Numbered from the stretch's first letter, positions 492 to 52,549 are shown. The stretch: DNA of 64,000 nucleotides from Patescibacteria group bacterium (GCA_036171455.1 JAVHRB010000091.1:2977-66976), one strand, 5' to 3'. A program made the numbers and translations. Notes: generated by a model from the letters alone, not told the origin.

Positions 492-3491
492 TTACTTTCC
501 GGAGGCTTTCACCTGCCGATGTATGAACTCATACATCTTCCCGTTCACGAAATCCTTCAACTCGATGTTTTTGTCGATTTTTTGAAACAGGTCGAAATTG
601 CTCCGGAACATCGATACGAGCTCTTTCGTGAACAGTTCGTCGAATTTCACCCTCACTGCGTCCTCGCTCACGTTATTGTTCATGGCACCAACCAAGGCCT
701 CGTTTTTGAGAAGCCTGGCGCTCAGGGTATTGAGCATGATGCGGTCCTCTTCCGAGAACGTGGTCCCGAAGCGCTCGTTCACGTCCGAAAGGATTTTGGA
801 CAGCGATTCGGTGTCGTCCTCTTTTTCCCCGCGTCCGCCAGCTCCCATCGGGTCGAGCTTCCCGGTTTCGTTATCGAGAACGATTGACGTCTGCGAACGC
901 TTCGGGACTTTGATGCTCTCGAGGTTCACGAGGTCCAGGAGTTCGGTCGGAAGGGGGTTCGACGACATCGGCAACTTCTTTTTGTAAAACCTGAGGAACA
1001 TGTACATCGCTTCGAGGTCCGCGTCGGTGAAGTCGATGATTTGCGATACGAAGGCGTATTTCCGGACGTAATCGGAAATCTGGACCCGGCATTCGGCCTG
1101 TTCCTCGCTTTCGGTTTTTTCGTCTTCGTTGAGTTCTTTCCACCGCTTCATGAGGACGTCCAGGAACGAATTCAGTTCCGCCGGCGTTACCCCCCGGTGC
1201 CACATGTCCGCGAACTCGGCTATCTGCGGTTCTCCGAAAAGCTTGTGACCGAGGATGTCTCGCCGGAGGTCGTAGAGTATTCCCGGTTCGGTAGCTTCCG
1301 AAAGGACCGTGGTAGTGTAATACGGCTGGAACGCCTCCTTAATGTCCCCGGTTTCGTTCACGAAGTCCAGGACGAACGTCTCGCCCTTGTCCGGATGGGT
1401 CCGGTTGAGCCGGGAAAGCGTCTGTACCGCGTTCACACCGCCCAATTTTTTGTCCACCGCGGAAAATCCGAGGAGGGGTTGGTCAAATCAAGTCTGGTAC
1501 TTCTCTGCGACGATGAGAAATTTGCAATCGTCCTTCTTGAACTCTTCCTTGGTCTGGGATTCGGGTATGCCGTTCATGTTCGCTTCGGTGTATTCCATTC
1601 CACTGTCTTTCACCGTGCCAGAGAACGCCACGAGGGTCCTATGGGAGAGGCCCTGCTCCCGCAGGTATTTGTCGATGGCGATTTTGTACCGGACGGCATG
1701 GAGGCGGGATTTGGTAACCACCATGGCTTTCGCTTTGCCCCCGATTCCGCTTTTGACGTGCCTTTCGAAATAGTCGACGATGATTTGGGATTTCTTCCCG
1801 ATGGCGTGCTCACTCTTTTCCACGGCGTTGACCAGCACCCGGGTAGCGAGGCTCTTGGAATATTTCGGGTCGTTCTCCGCGGACTTGTGGAGGCTGAAGA
1901 ACATATCGTAGGTCGTATAGTTCTTGAGAACGTCAAGGATGAACCCCTCCTCGATGGCCTGCTTCATGGAATAGACCGAGAACGGCACGAAACTGCCGTC
2001 GGACCGCATTTGCCCGAAGAGTTCGAGGGTCTTCTGTTTCGGAGTGGCCGTGAATGCGAAATAGCTCACGTTGGGGTTTTTCCGGCTCCGGTTCTTCATC
2101 TGCTTCACGAGCCAGTCCTCCCCGTCCTCTTCGGGAAAGGCTGAGTCTGACCGGAAAGCGCGTTCGAGGACGGTCTCCTCGTCCTCCCCGCTTCCCGCCG
2201 ACAGCACGTCGTTGACCGCGCGACCGCTCTCGCCCGACTGGGAGGAATGGGCCTCATCGATAATTACGGCGAACTTCCGGCCCGGTATGGTTCCCATCTC
2301 GTCCGCGATGAACGGGAACTTCTGGAGGGTGGTAATTATGATTTTCTCGCCGTCCTGCAGGGCGGTCCTGAGTTCCGCGGAACCTTCGGTGATGGGCTTC
2401 ACCACGCCCCGGACCTGTTCGAACTGGGAAACCGTTTCCCGGAGCTGCTTGTCGAGCACCCGCCGGTCCGTAATGATGATAACGCTGTCGAACACCTTTC
2501 CGTTCGAGGCGTCGTGGAGGTCGGCGAGCCGGTGCGCCGTCCAAGCGATGGTGTTGGATTTTCCGGAGCCGGCGGAATGCTCTATGAGGTAGTTCCTTCC
2601 CGAGCCGTTTTCCTGCGCGTCGGCCACCAGCTTCCTCACCGCGTCGAGCTGGTGGTATCTGGGGAATACGAGCCGTTCCGTCTTTTCCTTCTTCCCTCCC
2701 TCGAGCGTTTTTTCCTCCTTCTGAAGGCATATGAAGCGTCCTATGAGCTCCAGAAGGGTGTCCGGCGTGAAAACGTCTTCCCACATGTAGGACGTCTTGT
2801 ATTTGCCCGCTATGGCGGAGTTACCAGCGGAGCCGTCGTTTCAGCGGTTGAACGGGAGGAAATAGGTTTTCTCCCCCTTGAGTTCGGTCGCCATGTACGC
2901 CTGTTCGGTGTCGATGGCGAAGTGGACGAGGCAGCGCTTGAAGGCGAGAAGCCGTTCCTTGGGGTCCCGGTCCGTTCGGTACTGCCGTATCCCGTGCTCG
3001 ACGGACTGCCCGGTTAGTTGGTTCTTGAGCTCCACCGTCGCGATGGGGAACCCGTTGAGGAACAGCACCATGTCGATGCTGTTCTCGTTCCTTCCGGAAT
3101 ATTTGAGCTGCCGGATAACGGAGAAAACGTTTCCGCGGTACAGTTCGAGATTCTCCGGGTTGAAATCCGTGTTCGGCTTGAAATGGGCGAACCGGAACAG
3201 GATGCCGTCCAGCGTGACGCCTTCCCTGAGGATTTCCAGGAGCCCGTACTTTTCGGTGACCCGGACGATTTCCGCGAGGAGTTTTTCCCTGGCCCGGTCG
3301 AGCCCGTGGAGCCCGATGAGCTTGTTCGACTGCTTCGGCTGGGTGGACGAAACGAAGCGCCAGAACATCTCCGGGTCCAGGCAGGTCTCCCGGTCGTAGT
3401 CCGAAGCGAGCCGCTTTAAGTAACCGGCTTGGGTCACGAGGAAATTTTCGATGAAGGCTTCGAATCCGATTTCTTTGGTATTGGTACTCAT
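492..3491 (-). CDS. hsdR: type I restriction enzyme R subunit, 999 aa
   Basis: ORF-track fragments 2841..3491, 1488..2786 and 492..1457 share one frame and are separated only by TGA (2841-2843, 1488-1490). Helicase motif I AGSGKS, motif II IIDEAHSSQ, KYQT-[TGA]-FDQPLL and VQTLSRLNR. TAA stop. Confidence 0.95.
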
Positions 3492-3500
3492 GGGAATTGG

Positions 3501-3674
3501 TTAACAGTAAAATGGAACGGGTTCTTGGGAGCAGATTTCGTAGGTGGCGATGAGCTCCGCGAGCGCAGCGACGATTTCCATGGCTTTTGGGTCGGCGGAG
3601 TGCTTCCGGAAGAATTTTCGGTCGGCACGCTGCCATTGGGCAAGCAGGGAGAGCGATTGGGGCGAGAGGTTCAT
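3501..3674 (-). CDS. small hypothetical protein, 57 aa, directly upstream of hsdR
   Basis: ATG 3674-3672 to TAA 3503-3501, below the 60-aa cut-off of the ORF track. Ends 9 nt before the hsdR start. Preceded by an AT-rich stretch at 3675-3849. Coding status unproven. Confidence 0.3.
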   Translation of the reverse strand: MNLSPQSLSLLAQWQRADRKFFRKHSADPKAMEIVAALAELIATYEICSQEPVPFYC

Positions 3675-3849
3675 AGTGGTGCGTTATTGGTTTGTAGGAT
3701 ATCGTTATTGCGGTATTGTAAACGAAATTTGATTTATAATACAGTTTTTATTATAATGATTCCAGCAGTTGGCAGAGGGTTTCCGTCAGGGAGCTCCGTC
3801 GCAAGACAAAGCCGATTGCTTTTTTGTGCCTTGGAGCGGGAACGAGCTG

Positions 3850-4605
3850 TTAGTGGGTGACATGCTTCGGCTCGATATCACAATAAAGGGTCTTGGCCGC
3901 AAACAGGGCATCCGTCCCTTCGAAGAGGCTTTTTTTGAAGAATCCGAGCGTATCCGCTTTTCCCATCCGTTTGGCGAGCACGTGGGAAGAATACACGTAC
4001 CCAATTACGTCGGAAAACTGCATCGAATAGGAATTGAAGCTTTCCGTGTAATATACGGAATCGACAAGGTGAACGATGTCTTTTTTCGCGTACCCGTAAG
4101 CGGTCCCGTTTCTCTTGTACGAATGGAAATCGTTGATAATCCCCTGCGCGCGGTCCTCGTTGTTATCCATGATTATCAAGCCCTTCTTCCCTTCGTTCTT
4201 GAGAAAGGTTTCCGCTTTTTCCACCAGGTACATGAACGCGACGTTGTGCGGGTGGATGGGATATTTATATTTTTGGGCATGTTTCAGCTTGTCGACGCCC
4301 TGCGAAATGAATCGCACGTTCTGTTCGGAAAAAACCTGGAGTATCCCTTTGAGGGCTTGTAAACGGACTTCCACCTTGAAATGCTTGAAATATCACTTTC
4401 CGGAAACCATATCCGTCGCATGGAATTCGAAATCGAAGTTTTGTGAATACGGCATGAACATGACTTCGATGGAGCGAAGCCGCTCTTCGATTTTCGGTAT
4501 TTCGTCCACGGGGATAATGAGACCGGATATGAAATGTACCGGCTGGTCGGCATCGTCCAATTTCGCTCCGGTGTTTCAGGACTCGTCTAGGTATATGAGG
4601 TACAT
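3850..4605 (-). CDS. DUF3800-family protein, 251 aa
   Basis: Fragment 3850..4374 extends in frame through TGA (4393-4395, 4576-4578) to ATG 4605-4603. N-terminus MYLIYLDESGNTG matches the DUF3800 Y-x-DESG signature. Confidence 0.8.
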
Positions 4606-4675
4606 GGCGTAAATTTAAGAATATGGGGTTTTATCTCAATCTGCAACGGGACTCGCAAATAAGGAAAGCGTATGC

Positions 4676-5953
4676 CTATTCAATCTTGGCAAAGTAATCC
4701 ATCATTTCCAGCGTTAGGTATTCAGGATTTTTCGTTTGGACCTCCCCAAGGAAAAATCGCATGCTTCAATCCGCTTGGCTGTCTCATTTGGTTTTTCTGA
4801 ATATCCTTTCCAAATCGTCGGCGTTGAGAACGTCATAGAGCACTACGAGCGTAATGAAGAAATCGTCGGAGTCGTTATAGCAATTAATCTCGAAATTATC
4901 TATCAGTTCGTTCACGAGCATCCTCTTGAGGAAAGCGTCCAAAGCTCAGAAAAATTCCTTATACCCAGGAATAGAGAGTATGTAATCCCTGTCGCGGAGT
5001 CATCTGCAGACAATCTTTCAATTTGCACCTTCTCAATACCGGATATATGGCAGTTTGGATTTCTTCGCCATGCAACGCTCAAGCCGGGTCTTCTGATATT
5101 CCAAGACGTCGTAAAGAAAATCGACTATGGTTTTGGTCGAATTGACCACCAGCTTCGCGTGATGCCTGCTCGGGGCGGTCTCGCGGGTATGGCTGTCGCT
5201 CATGGTATTCCGGACCGCGGCTATGCCGTTGACAATGGAAGTGATTCAGGAGGTGACCATTTTTAGGGCAGCGTCCGCCTTTGTGCCTTCCGACAGGTTC
5301 AACAAGGCCTTTATTTTTTTGTAATAATCCCCTAGGTCGCCGGGGGTCTCAATCTCCTTTCCCGTAATCTGCTTGTGCAAATCCTTGGCCAACACGTCTT
5401 CGAGCAGGGCTCGCGCGTTGGTAATGGCTCAGTCGTAATCTCACTCGGCAAGTTTCCTATCGCATTTTTCCAATTGCTCTTTGATGAAAGGGCGGGATAT
5501 TTTTCCGGAATTTTCGATTTCGATACGGTTTTCGTCGGTTTTTACCATCTTGAAACGCAGTTTCCTGCCCAAATTCTCCGGCATCATGGCAAAGCTGTCG
5601 TCTTTCAGGTAGTCGTTGACGAGTTCCAATAGGCCGTTTCGCTCCGTTTCGTTATCACGGACGAGGGGATGTAGCATCTCCGCGAGGAACTGGGCAAACG
5701 TTTCGTCGCTTCACTTCATCAAATCAAGCCGGGAATCGTCGAAAATCCAATGGTCAGGCCAATCGTTGTTATTGAACCTGTGCTGCCAGATATCCCCCTC
5801 CATGTCTTTGTAACGGCCATCGGTCGAAGGCAGGTCACCAAGGTTGAAAATGCGCTTCAGGAAAGAGGTCTCGTCAAGCCGTCAATGCCAGGCGATATTT
5901 TCGATGCGGAGCTCGTCGCAGATGTTCCTCCTCGTTTTTTCCGAAATCAGCAT
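4676..5953 (-). CDS. AbiJ-like protein with Abi_C (HEPN) domain, 425 aa
   Basis: ATG 5953-5951 (13 nt after the hsdS stop) to TAG 4678-4676. Includes fragment 5441..5677; eleven in-frame TGA. N-terminal AbiJ-NTD-like region (IAWH-G-RLDETSFLKRIF, DIWQH). Central helical domain with R-x6-H (AAVRNTMSDSH). Confidence 0.75.
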
Positions 5954-5966
5954 AAGCGTTTTATGG

Positions 5967-7187
5967 TTACGGTTTGATTTTCCCGCTCACCGCGTGCGAT
6001 ATGAGCGAAGTTTTGTATTCTTGGAGCAGTTCGATTGACTGTTCGATTTTAGATTTCATCGAATCGATGTAGGCGGTTTCCTTTTCGAGATAGTCGACGA
6101 TTTCCTTTTGTTCGGCAATCGGCGGTATGCCCATGGCGAGATTCCCGATAAATTCCCAATCAGCGCGAGGCATCTTGGTGCCAAGTGTCGAATTATTGAC
6201 CTGCGTGATGAAATCGGAAGATACGATTCTATAAAAAAGGTAATCCTGGGTTATCTCGCTGGAAGGACGCAGTACGAGGAACTCGCCGACGCACAATCCA
6301 CTGCATGCGGCTTTGTATGCTTTTGCGAGGTACGGGCGCAATTTTCCGAATAGAACATCCCCCTGCTCGAAAGAGTTCATATTGCTCTCGAAAGTCCTTT
6401 CCCCATCGATAGGAAGATATTTCCCTGTCCAGCTTTCGATATTTTCCATTGCCACGGAAAACAAGTCACCGGAAAATGTAGTTTTCTGGTTTGTATTCGG
6501 TGCGGCATATTTCAGCTTCTTCACTTCCCATTCTTTCGGAATCATGCCAATCCATTCAATCCCACTGTCTTTCATCTCTACATTCGGGTCTAACCCCTTG
6601 GTAATGGCGTTATTTATGAGTGCACTTCTGTGCTCCGAGAGAAGGTCGATTTGTTGCCTCTTTTTCGCAATTGACTCGTCCAGTAGAGCAGCTTTTTCGT
6701 CGAGATATGTAACAATCACAATTTGCTCTTCTAATTCTGGCGTCGGGAAAGAGATATTTGCTAGTATTCACTGGGTCATGCTCGGTATTGCCGACCCCGA
6801 CTGATGTTCACTGAAGTTAATTCCGAGACATAGGTAATAGAAAAATTTCGGATAAGTATTGCCGAATATCTTCGTGTAGAACATCGTGTCTACCGTCCAG
6901 AATGGTTCGGTAACGAAAAGCGGTTTGTCTATGGTCCCCTTCCTTCAAAGTAAAACCGAAGGTTTGTTGTAAACGAAAGCGTTTGCCCTCGCGAATTCGC
7001 CGCCCGAACCATAAACAGGATATTCGCCATCTTCGGCTTCGATATCCTTGTAATCGCTCCCATTGCACACCGAGGCCATGTATTTCAGTTTCTTAACTTC
7101 CCAACCATCGGGAATATTCCCAATCGCATTCGTGTTTGACGGCTTGTATTTCGGGTAACGGGGATGACATTTTTTAAACGTTATCAT
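5967..7187 (-). CDS. hsdS: type I R-M specificity subunit, 406 aa
   Basis: Fragments 6945..7316 and 5967..6719 are in one frame, joined across TGA 6945-6947 and 6768-6770. Start taken at ATG 7187-7185 (MITFKK). Two target-recognition halves, each followed by the conserved helix (PELEEQIVIVTYLDEK; IPPIAEQKEIVDYLEKE). Confidence 0.9.
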
Positions 7188-7312
7188 TGAATGTAAGAAA
7201 AAGTGCAGAAAACCAGAATCACATACGACAGCGTGAGGATTATCGGCCAGCCCCATGACGCGACCAGCTCGCCGCAGGCCTTTATCCATGCGGCTTTCGA
7301 TTGGAAAAAGGT

Positions 7313-8218
7313 TCACGAGCGTATGTCCATGGCGAGACGGATGAGCCGCCTCATGTTCTTGTGTTCCTTTTCCGTTGCCGGCTTGTCCTTTTTCCCCGAT
7401 ATTATTTTGAACGATTCGAGCAGGTGGGTAAGGTATTCGTCGTCGATACGCTCGGGGTTTTGAATCGGTTCGGCAATCGATGCCAGGAAATCCTTGAGGA
7501 AAGCCCGTTTCTGTTGCTGGTAGGCGTTCCTAGCGAACACCCAGGCGAACACGAGTACGACGTACAGGAAAAACGACGCTACGCCGAAATAAAAGCCCGA
7601 ATGGGGAATGCTCGCTATGAAACCGGGAATATCCTTATTGGGAGCCGCAACGGTAACGATGAGGGTTATTGAAACGCAGAGCAATACCACGGAATTGAAC
7701 GTGACGTCGTAGTTACGGTTGGTATACGTGTCCATTTCGTCGGAAAGCTCCCGCACGTACGGCCCGTAGAGCTTTTCCAGGGAGAATCCCGGTATGAAAG
7801 CGCTCCATTCGGCTGCGGTACGGAGTATTTCCACGATTTGCGACCGTCGCTTCGGGGAATCCAACAGGAATTCGCAAAACTCCACGCTCAGGAGCTTCGT
7901 GGCAATAAGTCAGGCATCTTTGACTGCTGACAGGAATTCCAGCTGGGAAACGTCCTTTTTCTTTAGCTTCGAAACGATGTCGGCAAGTTTTTCCCCTTGA
8001 CCCGAATATTTTTCGGTCTTGGTCTCCCTCGTGAAATCAAGAAGGATTTCAATCCCGTTCCTGATTGGGGAAATATCTACATTTTTGATTTTCGGTCATT
8101 CTTGCGACCTTGCCTGCGATACCGCTTGCTTCCTGAAAAGTCGGAACAGGTAAACCGCAACCCTCGATTCGTCGAGCTCGTTTCGTACTACCGGTCGGAA
8201 ATTTGATTGGTCTGCCAT
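7313..8218 (-). CDS. hypothetical 2-TM protein, 301 aa
   Basis: Fragment 7313..7885 extends through TGA 7910-7912 and 8096-8098 to ATG 8218-8216 (12 nt after the DUF262 gene stop). Two hydrophobic helices (FNSVVLLCVSITLIVTVAA; GFYFGVASFFLYVVLVFAWVFA). No domain recognised. Confidence 0.65.
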
Positions 8219-8230
8219 GGTGCCGTTATG

Positions 8231-10111
8231 TTATTCGACGTTGAAAATGGAGTCGTTCCAAATCCTTTCGCAAATCACCCGGACCAGTTCCGCTCTGGCG
8301 CGTATGGCGACCTTCCCATACGAACCGTAAGCCGTAAAGGCTAAATCCTCGGTATCGATAAGCTGCAGGAAAGCAGGATGCTTCTCATAACACTGGGAAT
8401 TGAGCGACCAAGCGAGGAGGTTCTGAGAGAGGTAGTGGCTAACTTTCGTCTCGTACGGGGCATCGCTGAAGCTCTGGTTATACCCCCGAGGGAGCAGCAG
8501 GAGGTCGCCCACGTTGTTCCTCCACTCCTGAAAGTCATGCTCGTCTTCGTATTCCGTCGCGTACCGCTCGTATTTGTCGGCGGTTATGTGCTCAATTTCA
8601 TACGGCTTTTTTATAGACAGTGACAAATACTGTTCCACGCTGCTCGGAATACCGGTTTTCTCTTCGATGTAATGGGTAATCCGGGCCAGGAGGAATTTCA
8701 TGGTATTGTAGTTCCTCCTTCCGTCCGAGAGCTTATATTGGATGATTCCGGTGAAATCCTCTCACATCTCGGCGATAAATTCCCGACACGCATCGGAAAG
8801 CTCCTCCAACGAGCAGTCCCGGACCCGTTTGGTGAGATTGAACATGGTATAGCTAATGGCGCTGCTTCAAAGGGAGCGGTTGTTCGTAAGGCGGAGCATG
8901 ATGAACATTTCCAGGAATTCGGAGATGAGCTTCAGCTTCTTATCGACGGTATCTTCATCATCCCCGTACTTTACCGCGGAAAGCATGATGACGTCCTGAT
9001 ACGGGAACGTATGGTAGTCGTTGTAGAACACGGACGGGTATTTTGTGTCGAGTACCGATTTCGCCCTTTGGATTTTCAGGTAGAGTCCCGAATAGAATCG
9101 GAACTGCTCGTCGATGAAGCGGAAATAGTCGTCGCTTCTCGCGAATCAGATATCGCTTTCCCCATTCTCTCTTACCCACTTGTGAAAAGCGGTCCCTATT
9201 CGTTCGTAGTCCTGGTTCATCGAACCTTGTTGCCGTTGGCGCAAGGTTTTCGCGTATTTAGCCCTGAGCCACTTCTTAAAAAATTCCTCGTCTTCCCTTT
9301 TCTCGATGGAAATGAGCTTTACTATTCGTTCCTTCCATAGGTCGTTCGCGGCTGCCCTTTTCTGTTCATCCCGTATGTTCGCCAACAGGTACCCCTTGAG
9401 CATGTCGGTCGCCGTCAGGCTTAGTCCACGGTCGTTCATAGTTTCGAATATGGTGTACGCGTCGTCGTCCGAATGGGTGGTAATCTCCACCATGTCGACG
9501 TTGCCGGTGAGCCAATCAACGAAAAACGGCAATATTTCTCACTTTTCTCAAATCAGGCTGTCCGGGAAGTTCTCGGCTATGTCATGGTACCGGTCGAGGA
9601 TGTTCGTTATCGATTGCGGCGCGTCGTCCGGCAAAACGACTTCCTCTTTTCCGGAAAACAGGCTTTCGATTACCGATTGCCGCTCCGGCGCGTCGATATT
9701 GAAAGATTTTTCGCCGTAGGCCTCCGAATATATCAGGGATTCTAGCGGGGTTATCGCGATGTCTCTTTTCGTGGCCAAATTCCTCAGGTAAATCAACAGG
9801 AGGGTTATCGAGGTAAGGCGTTGCTGGCCGTCTATGATGAATTTCTTGCCGTCTTTCACGCACACGATGAAAGAGCCGAGAAAATAGTGGGGGTAACTCT
9901 TGACGTGCGGGCGTCCGCGTTCGATGTCGACGACGTTCTCGAATTTTCCGGACAGGTCGCTCAGAAGGGCTTCTATGTCCACGGCACGCCACTTGTATTC
10001 CCGCTGGTAGAAGTCGATTCCGAACTTCTCGCCGGAGAGGATTTTCTTAATGGACAATGCACTGCCATCGATTGGCAGTACGCCGCCGTCCGTTCTGTTC
10101 GTTTCTCCCAT
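8231..10111 (-). CDS. DUF262 + DUF1524 (GmrSD-like) nuclease, 626 aa
   Basis: Fragments 9548..10111, 9146..9532 and 8231..8701 are in one frame, and the 8702-9145 gap is open apart from TGA. DUF262 motif IIDGQQRLTS. C-terminal His-Me/HNH-like region YEIEHITADK ... NVGDLLLLPRGYNQS. Confidence 0.9.
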
Positions 10112-10128
10112 ATGTGTGTTTGGTAAAA

Positions 10129-12261
10129 TTACAACCGCTTCATCAGTTCGAGGAGTTCGTTCTCCACCGTTTCGATATCCGTCTCTATCGCTTCCAGGCT
10201 CCGCGGCGGTTCGTATTGGTAGAAATACCGGGTAAGCGGGAACTCATAGCCGACCTTCCCAACCTTCCCGTCTTTCGCGTCGCGCTTCATCTCGTCTATC
10301 CAAGCGTCCGGCACGAACGGTTTAACTTCCCGCTCGAAGTACGCGTTCACGTCTTCGTGATACGGGACGTTCTCGGTATCGCGGAGTTCGGAATCGGGTT
10401 CCGGGTTTCATTTCCCGTCGACGCATATGTCCGCCGATTCGTCCCGTTTTCACAGGTACGCCAAGAGTCGGTTTTTCATCGGTTTTCCATAAATGGTTCC
10501 AAGCATGCTCAGCGTAAGCGCATCGAACGTTTTTTCGAATTCGCCACGGTTCAAAAACACCTTTCATTCCAATTTTCATGCAATCCGGGTCAACGCCTCG
10601 TTCATTGCTATCGCAGCATGTCGCTCCATTACAAATTTCGTAGACATCGATTCAAGAACCGTTCACTTGCATTCTATTTCCTGATTCATCGCTAACCGAA
10701 GGTCGTTTTCCAATTCACTCGAAGCGCGGATACCGAGTCCGCTGAACAACAGAGCCTTGCCTTCTTCGCTGCTGAAATCGTATTTCAGCCTCAGCGGACG
10801 CTCTATAGTGATTTGCCGGTAGGCGAAGTCGGTCGTCTTGAAAATCTTGGAACAGTCGCTATCGCGGAAACCGCGGTACAGCGACAAAATGGTTTCGATG
10901 TCATTCCCGCCAATCTCGTGCCGCTTGTTTCCGAGGCTCTTCCGCATCTTCACGAAGGACTTACGGGCGTCGATGAGCTGGACGGTATTTTTCCGCTCCT
11001 CGGTTTTCCGGTTCGAGAGAATCCAGATATAGGTCGAAATCCCCGTATTGTAGAACAGCTGGTCTGGCAGGGCGATGATGGCTTCCAAATAATCGTTCTC
11101 GCATACCCACCGGCGTATCTCGCTCTCGCCGTCGCCCGCGTCCCCGGTGAACAGGGGAGAGCCGTTGAAGACGATTCCGATACGCGCTCCCCCCTCCTCC
11201 CGGTCGCGCATCTTGGAAACCATGTGCTGGAGGAACAGGAGCTGTCCGTCGGAACTCCGCGGCAACCCAGCTCAGAAACGCCCGGCATAGCCCCGCTCCG
11301 CTTCCGCTTCCACGGCTTCCTTGTCCTTCTTCCAATCCACTCAATAAGGGGGATTGGCAAGGATATAATCGAACTTGAGGTCAAGGAATTGGTCGGTCGA
11401 AAGCGTGCTGGCCACCGTGTGGTCTTTGTCTCCGCCCTTGATACGGTCTGCGTCTTCTCCCTTCATCAGCATGTCGGCCTTACAGATGGCATAGGTGACG
11501 GGGTTGAGTTCCTGTCCGTAGACGAATATGCTGGCCTTAGGGTTGATGTCCGAAAGTATGTGTTCCTTTCCTGCGGACAGCATACCGCCAGTTCACGCAC
11601 AACAGTCGTACATGGTCTTTATAACGTGTTCCCGCTTGAGCTCCTTGGCATCGGGCTCGAAAAGGACTTCCACTATGAGTTGGATTACTTCCCTCGGGGT
11701 GTAATGTTCCCCGGCGGTCTCGTTGGACTGCTCGGAAAACCGGCGGATGAGTTCCTCGAACACGTACCCCATCTCGTGGTTGGACACGGCGTCGGGATGG
11801 AGGTTTACCTTGTTGAACTCCTTGATTATGAGATAAAGCATGTTTCCGCCTTCCATCCGGGCGAGCTGTTTCTCGAATTCGAACTTCTCGAAAATCTGTT
11901 TCACGTTGTCGGAAAAACCGCCGATGAGGTTCCTGAGGTTCTTCGCCATGTCGCGCTGGTCGTCCAGGAGCTTGTGGAAATCGTAGGGCGAAACGTTGTA
12001 GAACCCGGTTCCGGCGATATCCTTGAGTATCATGCCCATGTCGGAAATCTGGCCGTCGTACTGGTTGAACGTGGAAAGTACTTCCTCCTTGGTGTCGGAA
12101 AGGACGCTGTCGAGGCGTTTCAGGAGCGTGAGCGGTAGGATTACGTCCTGGTATTCGTGCTGTTTCCAGCTTCAGCGGAGGAGTTCGGCGATGTTCCAAA
12201 TAAGCCCTGCTTTGGAAGCGGAGCCGGTATTGGTCGATGGGGTATTTTCTTTTGGTGCCAT
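10129..12261 (-). CDS. hsdM: type I R-M N6-adenine DNA methyltransferase subunit, 710 aa
   Basis: Fragments 11593..12039, 11341..11583, 10663..11265 and 10129..10350 are all in one frame. ATG 12261-12259. N-terminal LIWNIAELLR-[TGA]-SWKQHEYQDVILPLTLLKRLD, motif I DCCA-[TGA]-TGGML, motif IV NPPY-[TGA], C-terminal YFEREVKPFVPDAWID. Confidence 0.95.
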
Positions 12262-12365
12262 ACGGAGCGGGTTTGTTATCTAAACGAGCGAAGTATACGC
12301 GAAGGCAGGGGGAAATCAACATGGGCAGGCTTATTGTTCCGTCAGGGGTATTTCCAGATGCCAGA

Positions 12366-12632
12366 CTAGTAGAAGTATCAACCCGTCGTATCTCACTCGT
12401 TATCACGCATTATTGCCAAAAGGAGCTCCAAATCGCTCAAAACGCAGAACTGATAGCAAGACATCATTCCCAAAATATATGGCTCTACTGTCCCATGCAA
12501 AAAATTCTCCAGGCTTCCGCCTGTATGGTAGGCTAATATTCCCGTTACCATTCCGTTTGCCATGGTACATCGCGCATAGCCGCAACCGTGATATTGGTCC
12601 TTCGCTTCCTCCGTGAGTGCGTAAGCTTTCAT
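12366..12632 (-). CDS. hypothetical protein, 88 aa
   Basis: Fragment 12393..12632 plus an 8-codon tail past TGA 12393-12395 to TAG. No motif recognised. Weak support. Confidence 0.3.
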
Positions 12633-12700
12633 GCGTCGTAAATATTAAAAAATAACTTGTGACTATACTTTTGAACGTGCTTCCAGTATTCCGGAACGTG

Positions 12701-13438
12701 CTAATCAAATTGCGCCGATTCCCGTATTAGGGCCTTATTCTTCGAGGCTCTCTCCAGATAAATTTTCCATAGCAAGAACCGGACTATCGCTTCTTTGCCG
12801 TTGCCGCGGATGGGTTCGGATTGTAGATACCTCTTCGTCTGAAGGATTTCCTTCTCGGCCTCGCCGGTTCCGAGCCCGCGGGACAAACTATCCAAACGGG
12901 TTTGAATGACCTCCCGAACGTAATCCTCGCCATCCTCGGGCCATATCGGTTCCGCCACGAAGGGAAAGTTTTTCGAGATGAGTTCCTCGGTATACGTCAG
13001 CTTATTGTACGCTTGTGACAATGCACGGGAGTCGCTGCCGGTCGGAGCCGTACGCATTGCCGCGCGAATTCGAATTATCAGCTCGAATTTCTCCCGGTAC
13101 TCGAGCGCCAGTTCCATTCTCGGAAGTGCGGACGCGTGGAATTTCCGGTCGGAAAGGGCCGCGAATAGCCCGGCAATCAGTATGCTGGGGCGTTCGAACA
13201 CGGATTCTTCCACGGAATACGGGAAAACGCCGTATAACCCCTCAAATCCGCTTGATTGTTCTTTACCCTTGCTTTTTGTCGTCGAGACGTTTGAAACACT
13301 GCCATTCGAGGAATTTTGGGTATTCTCACTGGTATCTGCTAGCATTCGCGCGATAACGCCGGCGGTATTTGCGCGACGAGCAAAATAGAGGCTCGCGGCG
13401 GTTCCTCAAAGGATGAGGGATTTCAATAAGGTGTTCAT
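12701..13438 (-). CDS. hypothetical protein with N-terminal hydrophobic segment, 245 aa
   Basis: Fragment 12701..13345 extends through TGA 13406-13408 to ATG 13438-13436. N-terminus MNTLLKSLILGGTAASLYF. Confidence 0.6.
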
Positions 13439-13507
13439 GTGGTTTGGATGGTTGGAAATGATACGATGCGTTTACTTCTATCTTCTCATAAGGCTTGTTC
13501 AATCCTG

Positions 13508-14956
13508 TTATTCCAAGAGAACTCAGGCACGATGGAGGAATTCCCAGAATTTACTCCGGCCATGGGTTACGAGGTAATCGTTCAGGTCGCTGACGGTGCC
13601 GCCCCATTCATCATCGTTCCCGCTGCCGAACCGAATGCGTTCGATGGGAACTTCCCGCGAGAGCTTCTCGAACAGGCTCTCTCCTGCCGTATCGGAATGC
13701 GGTACCATGGCGAACGTACAGCCGAGCCGGTTGAACTCCCCGAAGTCCTCGCAGGAGGAGCTCGCGGAAGCGACGCCGATAACGTACGGGGTGAACTGCC
13801 GGACGGAAAGGTAGTCCGTGAATCATTCGACGACCAATACTTTGCGCTGCACGGCACCGACTGCCCCTATTCCTGACGGGAAGTCGTGGAAGTACCCGTG
13901 CTGCGTGCCTCAGACAACAATCCTGTACCGATAGCCCTTGTCGACGCTGCCCGCCGCGCGGGTTTGGATACCCATGACTTCGTTCGACGACGAGTTCTTG
14001 ATGGCGAGTGCCAATCGGTCTTCCCCTGCGAACCGGAGTATGCCCCCGAGCGCATCTGGCGAGAGTTGCCGTTCCGCCGCGTACTCCGTCTGTGAGCTGG
14101 TCGGCATCGCCGGTTCGAGCGCATCCCATTTCTTCGCCTGCTCGGGATTTTTGGTTGGTCGTGCTTCTGCAAGCAGCGGTAGTGCTTGCACGGTAACCGC
14201 ATGCGCTGACGGGCCGGACGACCGGAAGTCATCGATGCGGAACCCGAATTCCCGCGAGGCGACCCCGATTATTTCAGCTCAGGTGGAAGCCTTGTACAAT
14301 CTCTTTATGAGGGCGACCGGCTGGCCGCAGAACCTTCGCTTCTCGGTGAAATCCCGGACGTAGTTGTCACGGACGTTTACAATGTGACCACGGGTCTTCT
14401 TACCGTTCTCATAGATGCCCAACACCCCTTTGTTCCCCGTTCTGAACGTCTGATATCCAAAGCGATTGAGTATGTCCATCACGGGAATCCTGTTGATTTC
14501 TTCAAACGCTTCCCTGTAATCTATAGTATAACTATAGTTCTTACTACTATTTAATTCCTTACTTGTATTGCTCACTTTTCCAGATTCGAGTTCCTCCCAT
14601 GTTTGGTCCGAACCGACGGTTTCCCGTTTATGGCAAACGGAATCCATCTCCTCCATTATTTCGGTTTTCATTCCCCCCTCTTTTTGCGCTTCCCGGCGGA
14701 GCGTGACGAGGGTCCCATCTTTCGACGTGGAGTAGTCGAGCCATCATTTTTCCTTCATTTTTCCGAAGAATCCCCGTATCCATTTTTCGGAACGTTTCCA
14801 GCGCAATTCAAAGAATCTCACGCTCCTGAGAAGCTGAGACTCCGAAAGGCGGATTTTCTTTCCTCGCTTTGTTATAACATAGGTCTTCCACGTGGCGAGG
14901 CAGTGGAGGTCAACCATTGCCTCGAGTTGACTGAACCTTACGGAATGTTCAAGCAT
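13508..14956 (-). CDS. TOPRIM-domain primase-like protein (mobile-element type), 482 aa
   Basis: Fragments 14744..14956, 14279..14671, 13910..14191 and 13523..13708 are in one frame. TOPRIM Glu motif KVLVVE-[TGA]-FTDYLS, acidic motif PHSDTAGE, SDLNDYL near the C-terminus. Alternative in-frame starts at 15025 and 14671. Confidence 0.8.
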
Positions 14957-15351
14957 GCTGAAACCTTTGCTGATGGTTACGAATCATCATGTAACTTGAT
15001 TGTCTTCTGGTAGAATCTGAAGCATTGCGAAAATTTATTGGTACGAGGGCATATTATTCGCTATAAATACAGCCGTCAAAAAATTGGAAGCCAGACAAAT
15101 CGGTATTTTTTTTGAAAAAAGTGAAAAGTATTACCGGAAAGTAAAAAACCCATATGAAAAGGGTATGTTTTCGTAGTCCGAAAAAATCGTTGTACAATTC
15201 GGATATTTATTTTCTATTTTTCTCCCAGAGACGAAGCCTGAAATCACAATCCAAACAGGAATGTTGAAAACTTGGAACTATTTTATTCGCTTGTCATTAT
15301 ACCGAACCGAAAATCGTTTTTGGATAGACGAGCATGCAAGGTGAAAAAACA

Positions 15352-15375
15352 GAAACCCCTCAGATGAGGGGTTTC
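15352..15375 (-). terminator. perfect 10-bp stem hairpin with T-run on the minus strand
   Basis: gaaacccctc-agat-gaggggtttc. On the minus strand it is followed by tgtttttt. Lies upstream of the primase-like gene start. Confidence 0.6.
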
Positions 15376-15440
15376 TTAAAGTTGAAGAGCTGACAATGAA
15401 TTTATGCATTGTAAATTATTGGTCAGCCTCTCTTGGAGCG

Positions 15441-15634
15441 TGTCGCGTCAATACTACCATAGTTTAGTCAAATGTCTTTTTCTCCGGCGGCTTCGGCTTT
15501 GCGGATGGTTTCAATGCAATTCTAGGCTAGTTAAGTCAAAGGTTTTTCCGGCAGCTTCGGCTTCACGGAGGGTTTCGCGTCAATGCTATGCTAGTTAAGT
15601 CAAATGTCTTGAGAACCGTTGGCCTCGAAAGGAG
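15441..15634. repeat. three tandem ~63-69 bp iteron-like direct repeats
   Basis: Each unit contains (g)tcaat..N13..tagtt[at]agtcaaa[tg]gt, followed by a GC-rich ccggc.gcttcggctt-like segment. agtcaaa recurs at 15466, 15534 and 15598. Confidence 0.75.
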
Positions 15635-15866
15635 AATACCCCTATGCGTGCTTTTGTAAAGGGGAAAATGCTTGCTGTGCCATAAAACCGTGGTATAAAA
15701 AGTTTTTCATTTTCGGGTATTCGATTTACCCATGCGGGAAAAACCCGAATGCCGATATTTTCTCGAAAATCCGTGTTTTTCCAGGAAACCCCCATGCCGC
15801 TCGCCGGTTCTTTGCATTTCCCTCGCGGATATGATATCCTGCTACCGGTTTCCCGTACCCCGCCAT

Positions 15867-16217
15867 ATGCCGACAGAAGTAGACCTCGTCCGCGAACCCG
15901 AAGGGCTGGACGGACTCCTCGCGGAATCCGTCCTTTTGGGCGCCGCGACCAAGGAAGTCCTCATGGCACGGGCAAGGACATGAGGCGCCGAGACGCTTTC
16001 CGCTATCCGTCGGACGCTCTCGGAACAGAAAACGTTCGTCGTTTCGTACCTCAAGTCCCGCCTCCGGGCGGATTCGCTCGGAACCGACGCCGCGACGCTC
16101 GCGCGCGAGATGCGGCTCGAATACCTGGCGTATCTCCGGTCCGAAGAGGAACGGTTCCGGAAATCGGAAACGCTGACCGCTACGGAACGTCTCGAATCCG
16201 CGAATTTCCGCGCATAG
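15867..16217 (+). CDS. hypothetical protein, 116 aa
   Basis: Frame of fragment 15732..15983 continues through TGA 15981-15983 to TAG 16215-16217. ATG 15867 chosen; 15732 is also possible. The competing Arg/Pro-rich frames look like GC-driven shadows. Confidence 0.5.
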
Positions 16218-16258
16218 CCGACAAAAATCGTACAACTACCTAACCATTGACTACCTCC

Positions 16259-19200
16259 ATGGCCAACCCGAACGAATCGACCGCGACGCAGGACATTCCC
16301 GACATGCCCGAACGGGCCAAGGCCATGGAATTGTCGCGTGCCGAAAGCGAACGGAAGGCCCGCGAGCGCGACCTCGCCTCGATGGATGCCATGCTCGACG
16401 CGAACCCGAGCAAGACGACGTTGGAACTCGTCCTCCGCCGCATCGTGGAAAAAATGCCCGAAGAGCGCGCGACCCTCGAACTGATGTCGGTCGGCGCCGA
16501 TATCCAGGTCCTGGAATTCCTCGCGAAATCGTCTCCGTCCGACACCGAGGCTTCCGCGCTCCTCGAACGCCGGAAGAAACGCCGCGACGAGCTTTCCAGA
16601 GCGGCCGCCGGAGCTCCCGGAACGGAATCCCGGGCACCGACGGCCGAACGGCACGCCGCAGTAACGGCTGGCGGCAATGCCCCAGCGAAAGAGAAGCCCG
16701 CGGCTCACGACAAACCGAACGGAACCGCCGAACGGCCGGAATACCCTCCGGGAACAAAAGTGCTCTCGGTCGAGGAAATGCGGAAACTGGAACAAACCGG
16801 AAAAGCCCTTTTGGAAAGAAAACCCGGCGATATCCGGGAATCGTCCCCGGAGCGCGAACTCCTCGAAACGAAAATCGGGCAGGCGAATCTCCTCCTTTCG
16901 GCCTGAGAAGCCTACCGGGACTATCTCGCGAGCATCGAGGCGAACATCCGTTTCAAGAACGTTTCCGACAAGCCGAAACGGTACCAGGACCAGGTCCGCG
17001 CCATCGACTCGGCGCTTTCCGAGCTCGGCTCCGTGGCCTCCTTGCCGGAATCCGCGCGCGCGGAAGCCCTGAAAAGGCTCGACGTGAAAGCGCTCGCCGA
17101 CCGGGTCTTCGTACCCGAAACGAAGCTCTCCACGCTTTGAAGCGGCCTCATGAACCAGCCGATGCTCGAGGTCGACGCCGAGACCGGAGAGAAGCGGTTC
17201 CTGCCGAATATCGCGTCCACGCTCGCCGAAACCGAGGGTAGGTACGCGAGGATGCGGGCCATCGTCGCCGAAGGGAACGATTTCGGTCCGGCGTCGGCTT
17301 ACGCGAAGAAATACGAAATCCTCGGGCTCCTGCGTTCGAACGACTCCCGGGACGACGATGGTCTCCGCCTGAACTCCGGCGAAGCCATAGCGAAACAGGC
17401 GGAGGGCGACGTCCTCGGGAATGCGAAGCTCCGGGAGAACGACTCAATCCGCCGGGCGTTCGACATTGCCATCTCCATGGAAAAAAACCCGAAAGCGGCC
17501 GCTGCCGTCCGGTCCCTCGCGTTCGGGAATTCCATGCCGAACGCCCAGTCTTTCGGGCTCCTCTTCCAATCCTACGGGGTGGATTTCCCGAAAGGCGTAC
17601 TTTCGGCGCTGGGAAAGAAAGCCGCGGAATACCGGAGCGCCCGGAAGGACATGGTGGAAAGCCGGAAGGACGAGCTTTCCAAACTGGTAGACCGCCCCGG
17701 GACTTTCCCGGAAGGCTTCGTCCGCGAGTTCAAAAAAGACCCCGTAAAAACGGTAACGGAAGCCTTCGAGAACGATGCCGCGCGCAAAATCCTCTCCCTC
17801 TCCAAGCATGAAATCATCGCACAAGCGCTCAAGTCCGACGCGGCAAGGGTCCGCGAGCTCCGTAAGGACGACCCGGCGCTGGCGCTCTATACGAATATCG
17901 AGGGAATAACCCATACGCCCGACAGTACGGTAAACGGACGGGTGGACACTTCGCAATTCTATCTGGAGCAGCTTCTCATGTTCTACGTTTCGTGAACCAT
18001 TGGCAACGCCATTGCCCGCGCACCGATTTTGGAAAAGCCCGTCGAATATTTCGCGAAGGGCGCGAAGCTCAAAACCGAAGCCCTCGTCTGAGCGGGGCGA
18101 ACGGCGAACCTCGCCGGGAAATCCGCAGAACTCGTGGGAACCACCGTTACGGAGTGAGTGCCATTCGCGCTGTTCTACCAAACCCTCAACGGGCTCGCGA
18201 ACCAGGGATACGTCCACGCCGACACGCTCGGCACCGCCATCGAGGTATTTTCGGCCTCGCACAACGTCAAGGACGATTCCCGCATCATCGCTTTCCTCGC
18301 GGTCATCAAGCTGATGCTCCCGGTCGTCTCGAAGCTGCCGAATCCCCAGGCGGCCGTCGAAGGGATGCTCGCGAGGGAATTCCCGGAACTCGCCCTGAAA
18401 ATCGCGGGGAACCCCGCCGCTTCGAGGGGGTTGGAACTGTCCCGGACCGCGGTCCAAACCGGACAGAACGTCATTCTGGATACCGCCGCCCTCGTCTGAG
18501 CGGACACCGTCATCCGCGGGCTGTACGGCGAAGACCTCCCGAAGGATTCGGGCGAGATACCGAACTACCTCACGCAGGAATTCAAGGTCGTCATCGGATA
18601 CGTTATCTGACTCAGGACCCTTACGGACAAGCTTTCGCACGGTCCGAAGCCCGCAAGCATGTCCGATATCGCGAAACGGCAAATCGAGGTGAATTATCAG
18701 GAGAACGGGGATATCGCCATCCGCATGGCCGAGGGGCGGGTATTCGTCATCAGGCGGGAGCTCAGGAACCTCGGTCAGGCCCACGACCGCTTGAAAAACG
18801 GCGGAACGGACAAGCTCGACAGCCGCGCCATCGCCGCCGGAAAGCGAGAGAAGAAAACGGAGCTCAGGGGCGCTATGTCGGACGTGGAATTCGTTCGCCG
18901 GGAACTTGCCACCCATGAGTCCGGCATCGCCGCGTCCCAGCCGAACGGAACGAGGCCGGGCGAAGGGGTATATGCCGACGCGGCAGCCGGGGTCGGCGCG
19001 CCGAAGGGCTACGTGCAGCGGGCGCTTCCGGACGAGAACTTCACCCGAACGGGTACGAACCACACGGCGAACAACCTGAAAAGCCTTGAAATCGACCCGA
19101 AATCGATTAAGCTCAGCGATACCCTGTCCGGATTTTCGCCTTCCCTCGACGCGGAGGCAATCGGGGGGACGTTCCGGTCCCTCCGCAAGGGCATGGGGAA

Positions 19201-19555
19201 CGTCGAAAGCCCGGAGCTTCTCAGAAAACAAGCCGAAACGGCGATACGGCAGGAACTCCAAACGAAGTACGACGCCATGATGAAGGAATACGATAAGCTC
19301 ACCCCCGAAGCGCAACGGGCCATGGAAGCGTGGAGGGAGTCGATGGAACGGCAGGCGAAGGAGCTCGCGGAAGATTTTCAAAACGCGCTCGGAACGAAGC
19401 TCGAGCGGGGGAAGATGGACGGGAAATGGGGGAATCCCGAGTATATGGACAGGATAATGGGGACATTCGCAGAGAAAGCTCCAGAATCCCTAAAGAGCGC
19501 ATTATTGCAGAAAATCCCAGGCGTGAGACGAAAGGAGAATCTTGTTTCAGAATAG
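16259..19555 (+). CDS. large hypothetical protein, 1098 aa
   Basis: Fragments 16247..16906, 17150..17995, 18158..18499 and 18659..19555 are in one frame. The gaps are open apart from seven TGA. ATG 16259, TAG 19553-19555. Ala/Glu/Arg-rich, no domain recognised. Confidence 0.8.
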
Positions 19556-40230: not shown

Positions 40231-40508
40231 ATACCCAGTCTCGGGAATATAATCCAGTTTGTGTAAACACAATCTAAATTCAGAAATTTCTCAAATGCTT
40301 CCTTACTGGTCTGAGGGTTTATTCTGAAGAACTCCTCATCCACTTCAAAAACGCTTGGGTCTGCAATAATTTTGGTCCGCGTGAATTCAGCAAACCACAA
40401 CCATCGTTCAAATTTCAAGAAAATAATCCTTCTAATCCTAGCTTCGGTTGTATTTGGAGGGTTTTTTCATGGATTAAAAGTATGTTCAAAGAGAGAATCG
40501 GAATCGGA

Positions 40509-41812: not shown

Positions 41813-41932
41813 GTGCCTTTACTTCCTCCCTCCATGGCTTTAAATGGCGATTAAGCCCGATAAGCGGCGATACTCCGCTACAAGCGTTTAGTATGGTTCG
41901 AGCGATAAATTGTTCGGGGAGCCATAGCATAA

Positions 41933-50701: not shown

Positions 50702-50710
50702 TCTTTTCTA

Positions 50711-52543: not shown

Positions 52544-52549
52544 AAAATT

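What the first reader, a model, noticed from the sequence alone, without database searches (positions are those of the whole stretch)
15026..15866. Divergent 840-bp intergenic region with AT-rich tract plus three iteron-like repeats: candidate replication origin of a mobile element
This region lies between the minus-strand TOPRIM primase-like gene and the plus-strand ORFan block. It has an AT-rich stretch (15030-15340, with runs such as tattttttttgaaaaaagtgaaaag). It also has three tandem ~63-69 bp units (15441-15634). Each unit carries two GTCAA(T/A) half-sites about 20 bp apart and a GC-rich ccggc.gcttcggctt segment. Iterons plus an AT-rich unwinding element next to a primase or initiator is the classical layout of plasmid and phage origins.
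Basis: inference. Interest (0 to 1): 0.6.

Follow-up and report, generated by a model that had tools for sequence, protein, structure and literature searches.

The report
Lineage-specific tandem repeats beside primase gene
Three diverged 64-68-bp tandem repeats really do sit in an unusually long control region next to a primase-type gene on an integrated island of an uncultivated TGA=glycine bacterium, but every related island lacks them, so they are at best a strain-specific protein-binding array and not a demonstrated replication origin.

Summary
Window 15026-15866 is an 841-nt divergent intergenic region, and units of 68, 64 and 67 bp lie at 15436-15634 (75-82% identical). The genome reads TGA as glycine (table 25). 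Under that code the left gene (13508-15025, minus strand) is one 505-aa protein with a winged-helix DNA-binding domain and a DnaG/T7-gp4-type TOPRIM primase region, but no helicase. The contig is chromosomal (it carries argS), and the locus lies on an integrated island with large serine recombinases.

The origin reading is only partly supported.
- Five related loci were recovered, two of them with the primase gene. None has the array or any shared repeated word.
- The AT-rich tract is ordinary for this genome's spacers.
- There are no DnaA boxes and no GC-skew signal.
- The unit is three times the length of a classical iteron.

The array directly abuts a 125-nt hairpin-plus-terminator module (15307-15433). 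That module is 81% identical to the 3' flank of a pilin-like cassette in a congeneric genome. Module plus array therefore look like a lineage-specific gain.

The units fold no better than shuffled sequence on either strand. This leans towards a DNA-level binding array (about 0.4; origin iterons specifically about 0.2). The rivals are a neutral duplication or a minus-strand RNA of about 285 nt. Interest is low to moderate.

The parts
13508..15025 (-). 505-aa gene encoding an N-terminal winged-helix DNA-binding domain plus a DnaG/T7-gp4-type TOPRIM primase region, without a helicase domain. It has 7 in-frame TGA codons read as Gly.
   Evidence: The frame is open only with TGA as a sense codon. 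A two-sequence profile finds 971 representatives. Proteins of about 250 aa match residues 17-160. Toprim_2+DnaB_C primase-helicases match residues 185-505 at E 1e-12 to 1e-14. The relative P0005 hits phrog_2514 (DnaD-like helicase loader) at E 5.5e-5, Toprim_2 at 0.059 and TIGR01391 dnaG at 0.001. An AlphaFold2 model of residues 1-129 has pLDDT 81 and matches ArsR/MarR/CRP winged helices at rmsd 2-3 A. EGxxD is present, with its Gly encoded by TGA. The DxD motif reads HSD.
15051..15079 (-). Promoter-like site TTGACG-17-TAATAT for the primase gene
   Evidence: Consensus scan, 9 of 12 matches. It lies 26 nt upstream of the ATG at 15025. The GTCAA word at 15075 is the reverse complement of its -35 element.
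15030..15340 (.). AT-rich tract: 34% GC overall, with a peak of 73% AT from about 15095
   Evidence: It lies within 1 sd of the genome's spacer composition.
15307..15433 (-). Conserved non-coding module: a hairpin (15386-15427) and a minus-strand intrinsic terminator (stem 15351-15376, T-run 15341-15350)
   Evidence: Terminator scan. The fold of 15340-15432 on the minus strand gives -33.5 kcal/mol, z -6.9. The module is 81% identical to G001:C62:6254-6377 and G001:C33:79-174 in the same genus. The stem is kept in 91% of cells, with one compensatory pair. A sub-threshold Rfam match to the rnk leader scores 32.7 bits against a gathering score of 55.
15436..15503 (+). Repeat unit 1 (68 bp). GTCAAT at 15447, GTCAAA at 15467, and the segment CCGGCGGCTTCGGCTTTGCGG.
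15504..15567 (+). Repeat unit 2 (64 bp). The first word is degenerate (TGCAAT), GTCAAA lies at 15535, and the segment reads CCGGCAGCTTCGGCTTCACGG.
15568..15634 (+). Repeat unit 3 (about 67 bp). GTCAAT at 15579 and GTCAAA at 15599. The 3' third has diverged.
15633..15660 (-). Promoter-like site TTTACA-16-TATTCT pointing into the array. If it is active, it would give an RNA of about 285 nt ending at the terminator.
   Evidence: Consensus scan, 9 of 12 matches. TATTCT is also the -10 hexamer of the conserved right-hand promoter in L003 and L010.
15737..15782 (.). Inverted repeat GGAAAAACCCGAAT / ATCCGTGTTTTTCC with 18 nt between the arms
   Evidence: An inverted repeat of different sequence sits at the same relative place in L003 (9003-9056) and L005 (8361-8413).
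15812..15840 (+). Conserved extended -10 promoter of the 116-aa/1098-aa operon: TTGCAT, 17 nt, TGATATCCT
   Evidence: Read from the sequences. The same block, TTGC(A/T)T-17-TGnTAYNCT, precedes the orthologous gene in L003, L005, L006 and L010.
15867..16217 (+). 116-aa conserved helical protein of unknown function, the first gene of the plus-strand operon. The 1098-aa gene follows at 16259-19555.
   Evidence: Orthologues at 41-61% identity in five loci. The 1098-aa protein is 51% identical to its L003 orthologue.

Best explanation
The region is the divergent control region of an integrated serine-recombinase island in a table-25 (TGA=Gly) candidate-phylum bacterium.

Its outer parts are ordinary promoters. 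The right one is a conserved extended -10 promoter for the 116-aa/1098-aa operon. The left one is a sigma-70-like promoter for a winged-helix/primase gene.

Between them, this lineage alone has gained about 330 nt. The gain has two parts: a 125-nt hairpin-plus-terminator module that also occurs behind a pilin-like cassette in a congeneric genome, and, directly abutting it, a triplicated 64-68-bp unit.

I infer that the array works at the DNA level. It would act as a cluster of same-strand GTCAAW-containing sites bound by a sequence-specific protein of the island. The winged-helix primase encoded 400 nt away is the obvious candidate. The sites would then serve as iteron-like loading or auto-regulatory sites for replication of the excised island.

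Shown: the anatomy, the uniqueness of the array, the lineage-specific gain, the conserved terminator, the nature of the neighbouring protein and the poor RNA folding of the units. Inferred: any protein binding, and any role in replication. My confidence that it is a DNA-level binding array is about 0.4. Confidence that it is an origin specifically is about 0.2.
For: - The repeats are real and diverged in a mosaic pattern. U1 and U3 share TCGCGTCAAT, U2 and U3 share GCTAGTTAAGTCAAA, and U1 and U2 share the GC-rich segment.
- All five array words lie on one strand, 20 bp apart within a unit.
- The units fold worse than dinucleotide shuffles on both strands (z +1.1 to +1.6; 178-195 of 200 shuffles fold at least as well). 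This gives no sign of a structured RNA.
- The core words occur nowhere else in the window or genome, so any binding would be local, as at an origin, and not a dispersed regulon.
- The neighbouring protein combines a confident winged-helix fold with a primase-type TOPRIM region.
- The island is integrative.
- A 200-nt array and an 841-nt spacer persist in a genome whose median spacer is 72 nt.
- The array is identical, with three units, in four independent assemblies.
Against: - No related island has the array. This includes L003 and L005, which keep the primase gene and a conserved winged helix (RWKRSEKW / RWQRSEKW).
- No shared repeated word is found in their spacers or inside the genes.
- The unit length (64-68 bp) and the spacing (20/68/44/20) do not fit classical iterons (PMC4980987).
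- SaPI-type origins have words on both sides of the AT tract in opposite orientation (PMC9371898). Here all words are on one side and in one orientation.
- There is no DnaA box.
- The AT tract is ordinary, and the terminator module lies between it and the array.
- The protein lacks a helicase domain, and its TOPRIM DxD motif reads HSD.
- The conservation pattern within units is not statistically distinguishable from chance with only three copies.
- The positive fold z-scores are individually weak and are not independent of one another.
Confidence: 0.4

Rival explanations
1. Neutral by-product. A recombination event brought the terminator module into the ancestral spacer of about 425 nt. An adjoining segment was then duplicated twice by slippage or unequal exchange. 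The copies have drifted and do nothing.
For: - The array is absent from all five related loci, whose spacers are 275-650 nt.
- Homology to the congeneric terminator module stops within 3 nt of the first unit.
- The junction left of the conserved right-hand promoter is a swap point. It is followed by the primase module, by an unrelated 226-aa gene, or by HsdM.
- U2 has lost one GTCAAW word and U3 has lost the GC-rich segment.
- No statistic separates conserved cores from chance.
Against: - Unit divergence of 18-25% implies age. Useless DNA is rarely kept for long in a 1.27-Mb genome with a median spacer of 72 nt.
- The array is invariant across four assemblies, although these are probably one population.
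Confidence: 0.3
2. The array is the body of a minus-strand non-coding RNA of about 285 nt. It would start at the TTTACA-16-TATTCT promoter (15660 to 15633) and end at the intrinsic terminator (15376 to 15351). It would act either as a stand-alone RNA or as an attenuated leader upstream of the primase gene.
For: - A strong terminator with a T-run lies immediately downstream of the array on the minus strand.
- No minus-strand gene lies upstream that it could serve.
- The terminator stem is conserved with a compensatory change in a congeneric genome.
- A promoter-like site sits at the right distance.
- In L003 and L005 the primase gene has a leader of about 100 nt, with an A-run/GC/T-run hairpin 25-35 nt before the ATG. 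A terminator-like hairpin upstream of the primase frame is therefore common to all three.
- There is a sub-threshold Rfam match of 15343-15436 to a two-hairpin leader family.
Against: - The repeat units are less structured than shuffles on the minus strand too.
- No homologue of the array exists in 204 genomes of the order or in three public collections, so there is no covariation support.
- No complementary target for the core exists in the genome.
- No Rfam family reaches its threshold.
- The promoter match is weak (9 of 12).
- In the congeneric genome the same terminator simply follows a small ORF.
Confidence: 0.2
3. The array is an operator or centromere-like array for another island protein, for example a repressor of the divergent promoters or a partition adaptor. 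It would have no role in replication initiation.
For: - The array sits between two divergent promoters and is flanked by two terminator-like inverted repeats (15351-15376 and 15737-15782).
- Relatives carry other short direct repeats (TTCACA N5 TTCACA in L003 and L005) upstream of the same right-hand promoter.
Against: - No recognisable repressor, ParA, ParB or ParR-type gene was found among the neighbours.
- The 116-aa protein is conserved in islands that lack the array.
Confidence: 0.1

Closest known systems
Iteron-type theta origins of plasmids (pSC101, F, P1, RK2, R6K; review PMC4980987)
   Same: It has three direct repeats next to the gene of a winged-helix replication protein, with an AT-rich stretch in the same spacer. 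pSC101 also has three repeats.
   Different: Classical iterons are 17-22 bp, in phase, and accompanied by DnaA boxes. Here the unit is 64-68 bp and only a 5-6-bp word recurs within it. The spacing is irregular and there is no DnaA box. The AT tract is cut off from the array by a terminator. Related replicons lack the array.
SaPI/PICI replication module (pri-rep-ori; PMC9371898)
   Same: Both are integrated islands carrying a primase, a winged-helix domain that reads short penta- or hexanucleotide words, and an AT-rich region.
   Different: The SaPI ori lies just downstream of rep. It has 6-12 words on both sides of the AT region in opposite orientation, and the winged helix sits on a self-loading helicase. 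Here there is no helicase, the words are upstream, and they lie on one side and in one orientation.
Phage P4 alpha protein and SPP1 G38P / lambda O replisome organisers (from my own knowledge, not checked here)
   Same: A priming or organiser protein carries its own origin-binding winged helix. The N-terminal domain hits the PHROG family 'DnaD-like helicase loader'.
   Different: Those proteins bind repeats that are conserved within their families, often inside their own gene. No intragenic or shared repeats were found here.
Rho-independent terminators and leader attenuators
   Same: 15351-15376 has an 11-bp GC-rich stem, a 4-nt loop and a T-run, and the stem is conserved with a compensatory change.
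   Different: It is not attached to any gene in the window. It lies 325 nt upstream of the primase ATG.

Membership tests
Iteron-type plasmid/phage origin | Three or more direct repeats of about 17-22 bp at regular, helically phased spacing | tested here: not met
   The units are 68, 64 and 67 bp. Within a unit only GTCAAW recurs. Word starts at 15447, 15467, 15535, 15579 and 15599 give spacings of 20/68/44/20. The size range is from PMC4980987.
Iteron-type plasmid/phage origin | Adjacent AT-rich unwinding element that is clearly richer than background | tested here: inconclusive
   15030-15340 is 34% GC, against 39 +/- 7.5% for this genome's spacers. The peak of 73% AT is matched by 1.2-2.9% of all genome windows. 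It is separated from the array by the 125-nt terminator module.
Iteron-type plasmid/phage origin | DnaA box(es) | tested here: not met
   TTATCCACA has no match on either strand with up to 1 mismatch. Only chance-level matches appear at 2 mismatches.
Iteron-type plasmid/phage origin | A cognate initiator binds the repeats | not testable with these tools
   A winged-helix domain exists in the neighbouring protein. Binding needs EMSA or footprinting.
Iteron-type plasmid/phage origin | The layout recurs in related replicons that carry the same initiator | tested here: not met
   L003 and L005 (primase 45-49% identical) have spacers of 422 and 427 nt with no tandem array and no shared repeated word.
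Iteron-type plasmid/phage origin | Replicon behaviour: circular form, raised copy number or skew inflection | tested here: inconclusive
   Contig C91 has no terminal overlap and no cumulative GC-skew inflection at the locus, and it carries argS.
SaPI/PICI-type ori | Hexanucleotide words on both sides of a central AT region, in opposite orientation, just downstream of a Rep helicase gene | tested here: not met
   All words are on the + strand and on one side, upstream of the gene. No helicase domain is present. The definition is from PMC9371898.
Structured non-coding RNA (any Rfam family) | Match at the gathering score, or a fold better than shuffles with covariation | tested here: not met
   There are no matches at gathering score in the window. 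The best sub-threshold match covers only the terminator module. The units give z +1.1 to +1.6 on both strands. No homologues of the array exist for a covariation test.
Intrinsic terminator (15351-15376, minus strand) | GC-rich stem, short loop, 3' U-tract, and stem preserved in homologues | tested here: met
   11 pairs, of which 6 are GC; a 4-nt loop; the tail GTTTTTTCAC. 91% of cells are paired across three copies, with one compensatory pair. With only three sequences the statistics are weak.
CRISPR array or mini-array (period 64-68 bp) | Conserved repeats separated by unrelated spacers, and a host CRISPR repeat to match | tested here: not met
   The would-be 'spacers' of U1 and U2 are themselves about 80% identical. 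No CRISPR-like array is found in the genome.
DnaG/T7-gp4-type primase (neighbouring gene) | TOPRIM fold with EGxxD and DxD motifs, and homology to primase domains | tested here: inconclusive
   The profile matches Toprim_2+DnaB_C proteins at E 1e-12 to 1e-14. Direct Pfam and NCBIfam hits are below their cut-offs. EGFTD is present. DxD reads HSD in the window, HQD in L003 and DRD in L005. The full-length AlphaFold2 model was poor (pLDDT 38).

The most novel reading that the evidence does not exclude
The array would be the cis-acting origin of a previously undescribed replicon type of table-25 candidate-phylum bacteria. A helicase-less winged-helix/primase fusion, known from only three loci among about 15 billion public proteins, would bind composite 64-68-bp iterons and prime replication of an excised serine-recombinase island. 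The adjoining terminator would shield the origin from transcription. This would be the first defined origin and initiator pair for a mobile element of these uncultivated lineages.
Probability: 0.15. Interest if true: 0.55.

Novelty: new member of a known kind. Interest (0 to 1): 0.3.

Why it matters
If the array is a working origin or control site, it would give a first handle on how islands replicate in TGA=glycine candidate-phylum bacteria, for which no genetic tools or defined replicons exist. A minimal unit of primase plus spacer could seed vector design. As it stands, the main value is corrective. The locus can only be read under table 25. The iteron-like look of the repeats is not backed by comparison with relatives. 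The spacer is a mosaic of two conserved promoters, a borrowed terminator and a strain-specific triplication.

Tried and rejected
- **Standard-code reading.** Table 11 leaves 27% ORF coverage in the low-GC half of the window, against 91% with TGA as a sense codon. HsdM motif positions show TGA = Gly.
- **Protein-coding repeats.** All six frames of 15380-15720 are broken or implausible, and there are no Pfam hits.
- **Structured RNA.** No support from Rfam at gathering score or at the E-value threshold. Per-unit folds are worse than shuffles.
- **CRISPR-like mini-array.** Rejected.
- **Transposon-end binding-site array.** No inverted copies of the core near the other shared segment at 40.2 kb or anywhere in the window.
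- **Intragenic iterons of the lambda O / SPP1 type.** None in the three primase genes.
- **Shared repeated words among the three primase-bearing spacers.** None apart from one generic hexamer, ATATCC.
- **Pattern GTCAATNCTANNNTAGTTNAGTCAAA in public collections.** No hits in metagenome, genome or viral collections.
- **Back-translated searches for primase relatives in those collections.** None found.
- **33-nt match in G125.** This is an AT-rich promoter and is at chance level.
- **Full-length AlphaFold2 model.** Unusable, pLDDT 38.
- **Copy-number variation.** Four independent Logan assemblies are 100% identical with three units, so they carry no information.

Full report
**Genetic code and gene borders.** Under the standard code the window looks almost gene-free. 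ORFs of at least 150 codons cover 27% of the low-GC half, against 91% when TGA is read as a sense codon. In the type I methylase at 10129-12261, the in-frame TGA codons align with glycines of solved homologues, for example the GTGG motif. The organism therefore uses table 25, as Gracilibacteria and Absconditabacteria do. The genome is 1.27 Mb in 103 contigs at 43% GC, and the window is C91:2977-66976. Under table 25 the finding's borders are correct. A 505-aa minus-strand gene starts at 15025. A conserved 116-aa plus-strand gene starts at 15867 and is followed by a 1098-aa gene. The spacer is 841 nt, longer than the 99th percentile (544 nt) of gaps between ORFs in this genome.

**The observation.** Tandem Repeats Finder and the repeat finder confirm three head-to-tail units at 15436-15634 with periods of 68 and 64 bp and 75-82% identity. 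U1 and U3 each carry GTCAAT and GTCAAA 20 bp apart. U2 keeps only the second word. The GC-rich CCGGCNGCTTCGGCTT segment is present in U1 and U2 and has diverged in U3. The array is unique in the genome. The AT-rich tract is real but ordinary (34% GC against 39 +/- 7.5% for spacers).

**Context.** The contig is chromosomal, because it carries argS at 56879-58771. It has no terminal overlap and no skew inflection at the locus. The locus lies on an island of atypical composition. The island holds large serine recombinases at C91:27-1817 and at window 41888-44883, a defence cluster at 492-12261 and many ORFans.

**The left gene.** It has no Pfam hit above threshold, but a profile built from it and its one close relative finds 971 representatives.
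- Proteins of about 250 aa match residues 17-160.
- T7-gp4-like Toprim_2+DnaB_C proteins match residues 185-505 at E 1e-12 to 1e-14.
- The relative hits the PHROG family 'DnaD-like helicase loader' and, weakly, Toprim_2 and dnaG.
- An AlphaFold2 model of residues 1-129 (pLDDT 81) is a winged helix that matches ArsR, MarR and CRP domains.

The protein has a DNA-binding domain. It has no helicase domain. Its DxD motif reads HSD.

**Relatives.** Exact and profile look-ups recovered five related loci.
- L003 and L005 keep the order primase, spacer, 116-aa gene, 1080-aa gene, and end in serine recombinases. Their primases are 49% and 45% identical to the window's.
- L006 and L007 have an unrelated 226-aa gene and two recombinases in place of the primase module.
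- L010 has HsdM there.

Their spacers are 275-650 nt. None has a tandem array. No word occurring three or more times in the window spacer recurs in both other primase-bearing spacers, apart from one generic hexamer, ATATCC. None of the three primase genes contains internal iterons.

What all the loci do share is the last 60 nt or so before the 116-aa gene. This is an extended -10 promoter, TTGC(A/T)T-17-TGnTAYNCT, at window 15812-15840. They also share an inverted repeat of varying sequence about 100 nt upstream of it.

**A borrowed terminator.** A DNA search of 204 genomes of the order found that window 15307-15433 is 81% identical to two places in a same-genus genome. Nothing else in the spacer matched above chance level. 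This segment holds a hairpin and a strong minus-strand intrinsic terminator (z -6.9). The terminator stem is preserved with a compensatory change. In the congeneric genome the segment follows a small ORF behind a 1016-aa gene with a prepilin motif and a DUF7483 domain. A promoter-like piece from in front of that gene also recurs in the window at 40239-40290. Homology ends within 3 nt of the first repeat unit. Relative to L003 and L005, the window's spacer therefore looks like the ancestral 425 nt or so plus a gain of 'terminator module + array'.

**What the array might be.**
- *RNA.* Each unit folds worse than its shuffles on both strands (z +1.1 to +1.6). No Rfam family fits. No homologues exist for a covariation test. 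A minus-strand transcript of about 285 nt remains possible, running from the weak promoter at 15660-15633 to the terminator. It is the only obvious use for that terminator. It also echoes the hairpin-bearing leaders of the L003 and L005 primase genes.
- *DNA sites.* The one-strand arrangement of GTCAAW words, the strictly local occurrence and the adjacent winged-helix/primase gene fit an iteron-like or operator array. Against this, the unit size, the irregular spacing, the lack of DnaA boxes and the absence from relatives all depart from classical iteron origins (PMC4980987) and from SaPI-type origins (PMC9371898).
- *Neutral duplication.* A duplication at a recombination scar explains the comparative data best. 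It explains less well why the array persists in a streamlined genome.

The spacer is 100% identical, with three units, in four independent assemblies from one study. Population data therefore add nothing.

**Verdict.** My ranking is:

| Reading | Confidence |
|---|---|
| DNA-level binding array | about 0.4 (origin specifically about 0.2) |
| Neutral duplication | about 0.3 |
| Minus-strand RNA | about 0.2 |
| Other operator or centromere-like site | about 0.1 |

Read depth, junction reads and RNA evidence would decide between these.

Noticed in passing
window 40239-40290 and 15307-15430 (both minus strand); L020 (G001:C62) 2523-2574 and 6254-6377: Two short non-coding pieces of the window match a same-genus genome at 90% and 81% identity. 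There they are the promoter-like upstream flank and the terminator flank of one 3.7-kb cassette (a 1016-aa prepilin-motif/DUF7483 gene plus small ORFs). In the window they lie 25 kb apart in the same orientation, bracketing the ORFan part of the island. They could be portable regulatory modules or traces of an insertion or replacement event.
   Followed up: partly
L003, L005, L006/L007, L010 versus window 12700-19555: The 116-aa/1098-aa operon with its extended -10 promoter is the constant core of a small island family. Its left neighbour is swapped between a winged-helix/primase + 245-aa module, an unrelated 226-aa gene with two serine recombinases, and a type I methylase. The spacer is therefore a recombination junction.
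   Followed up: partly
L003 9257-9280; L005 8540-8592: In both primase-bearing relatives the predicted primase leader of about 100 nt contains an A-run/GC/T-run hairpin 25-35 nt before the ATG. This resembles a leader attenuator, as in antisense-controlled rep genes. The window has its terminator 325 nt upstream instead.
   Followed up: partly
window 13508-15025 (protein residues 443-445): The TOPRIM DxD metal-binding motif reads HSD in the window and HQD in L003, but DRD in L005. Catalytic competence of the primase domain is therefore uncertain in two of the three family members.
   Followed up: no
window 12262-12700: The 102-aa ORF between the 245-aa gene and hsdM has an implausible composition and no homologues. 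This stretch of about 440 nt is probably a non-coding junction between the island core and the defence cluster.
   Followed up: partly
window 48713-55273: A type III restriction-modification pair (Mod 48713-50701, Res 52550-55273) has an OLD-like AAA_15/TOPRIM ATPase gene (50711-52543) nested between the two genes. A Bro-N protein lies nearby, next to argS.
   Followed up: no
L024 (Logan SRR25490535 contig), start of contig: One short-read assembly breaks exactly inside repeat unit 3. This shows that the array is long and similar enough to interrupt assembly. Copy number in short-read assemblies should be checked against reads.
   Followed up: no
window 15645-15686 (+): The AAGGAG that ends unit 3 is followed 9 nt later by an ATG opening a 13-codon frame (MRAFVKGKMLAVP). 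This is probably chance, and no homologue is available to test it.
   Followed up: no
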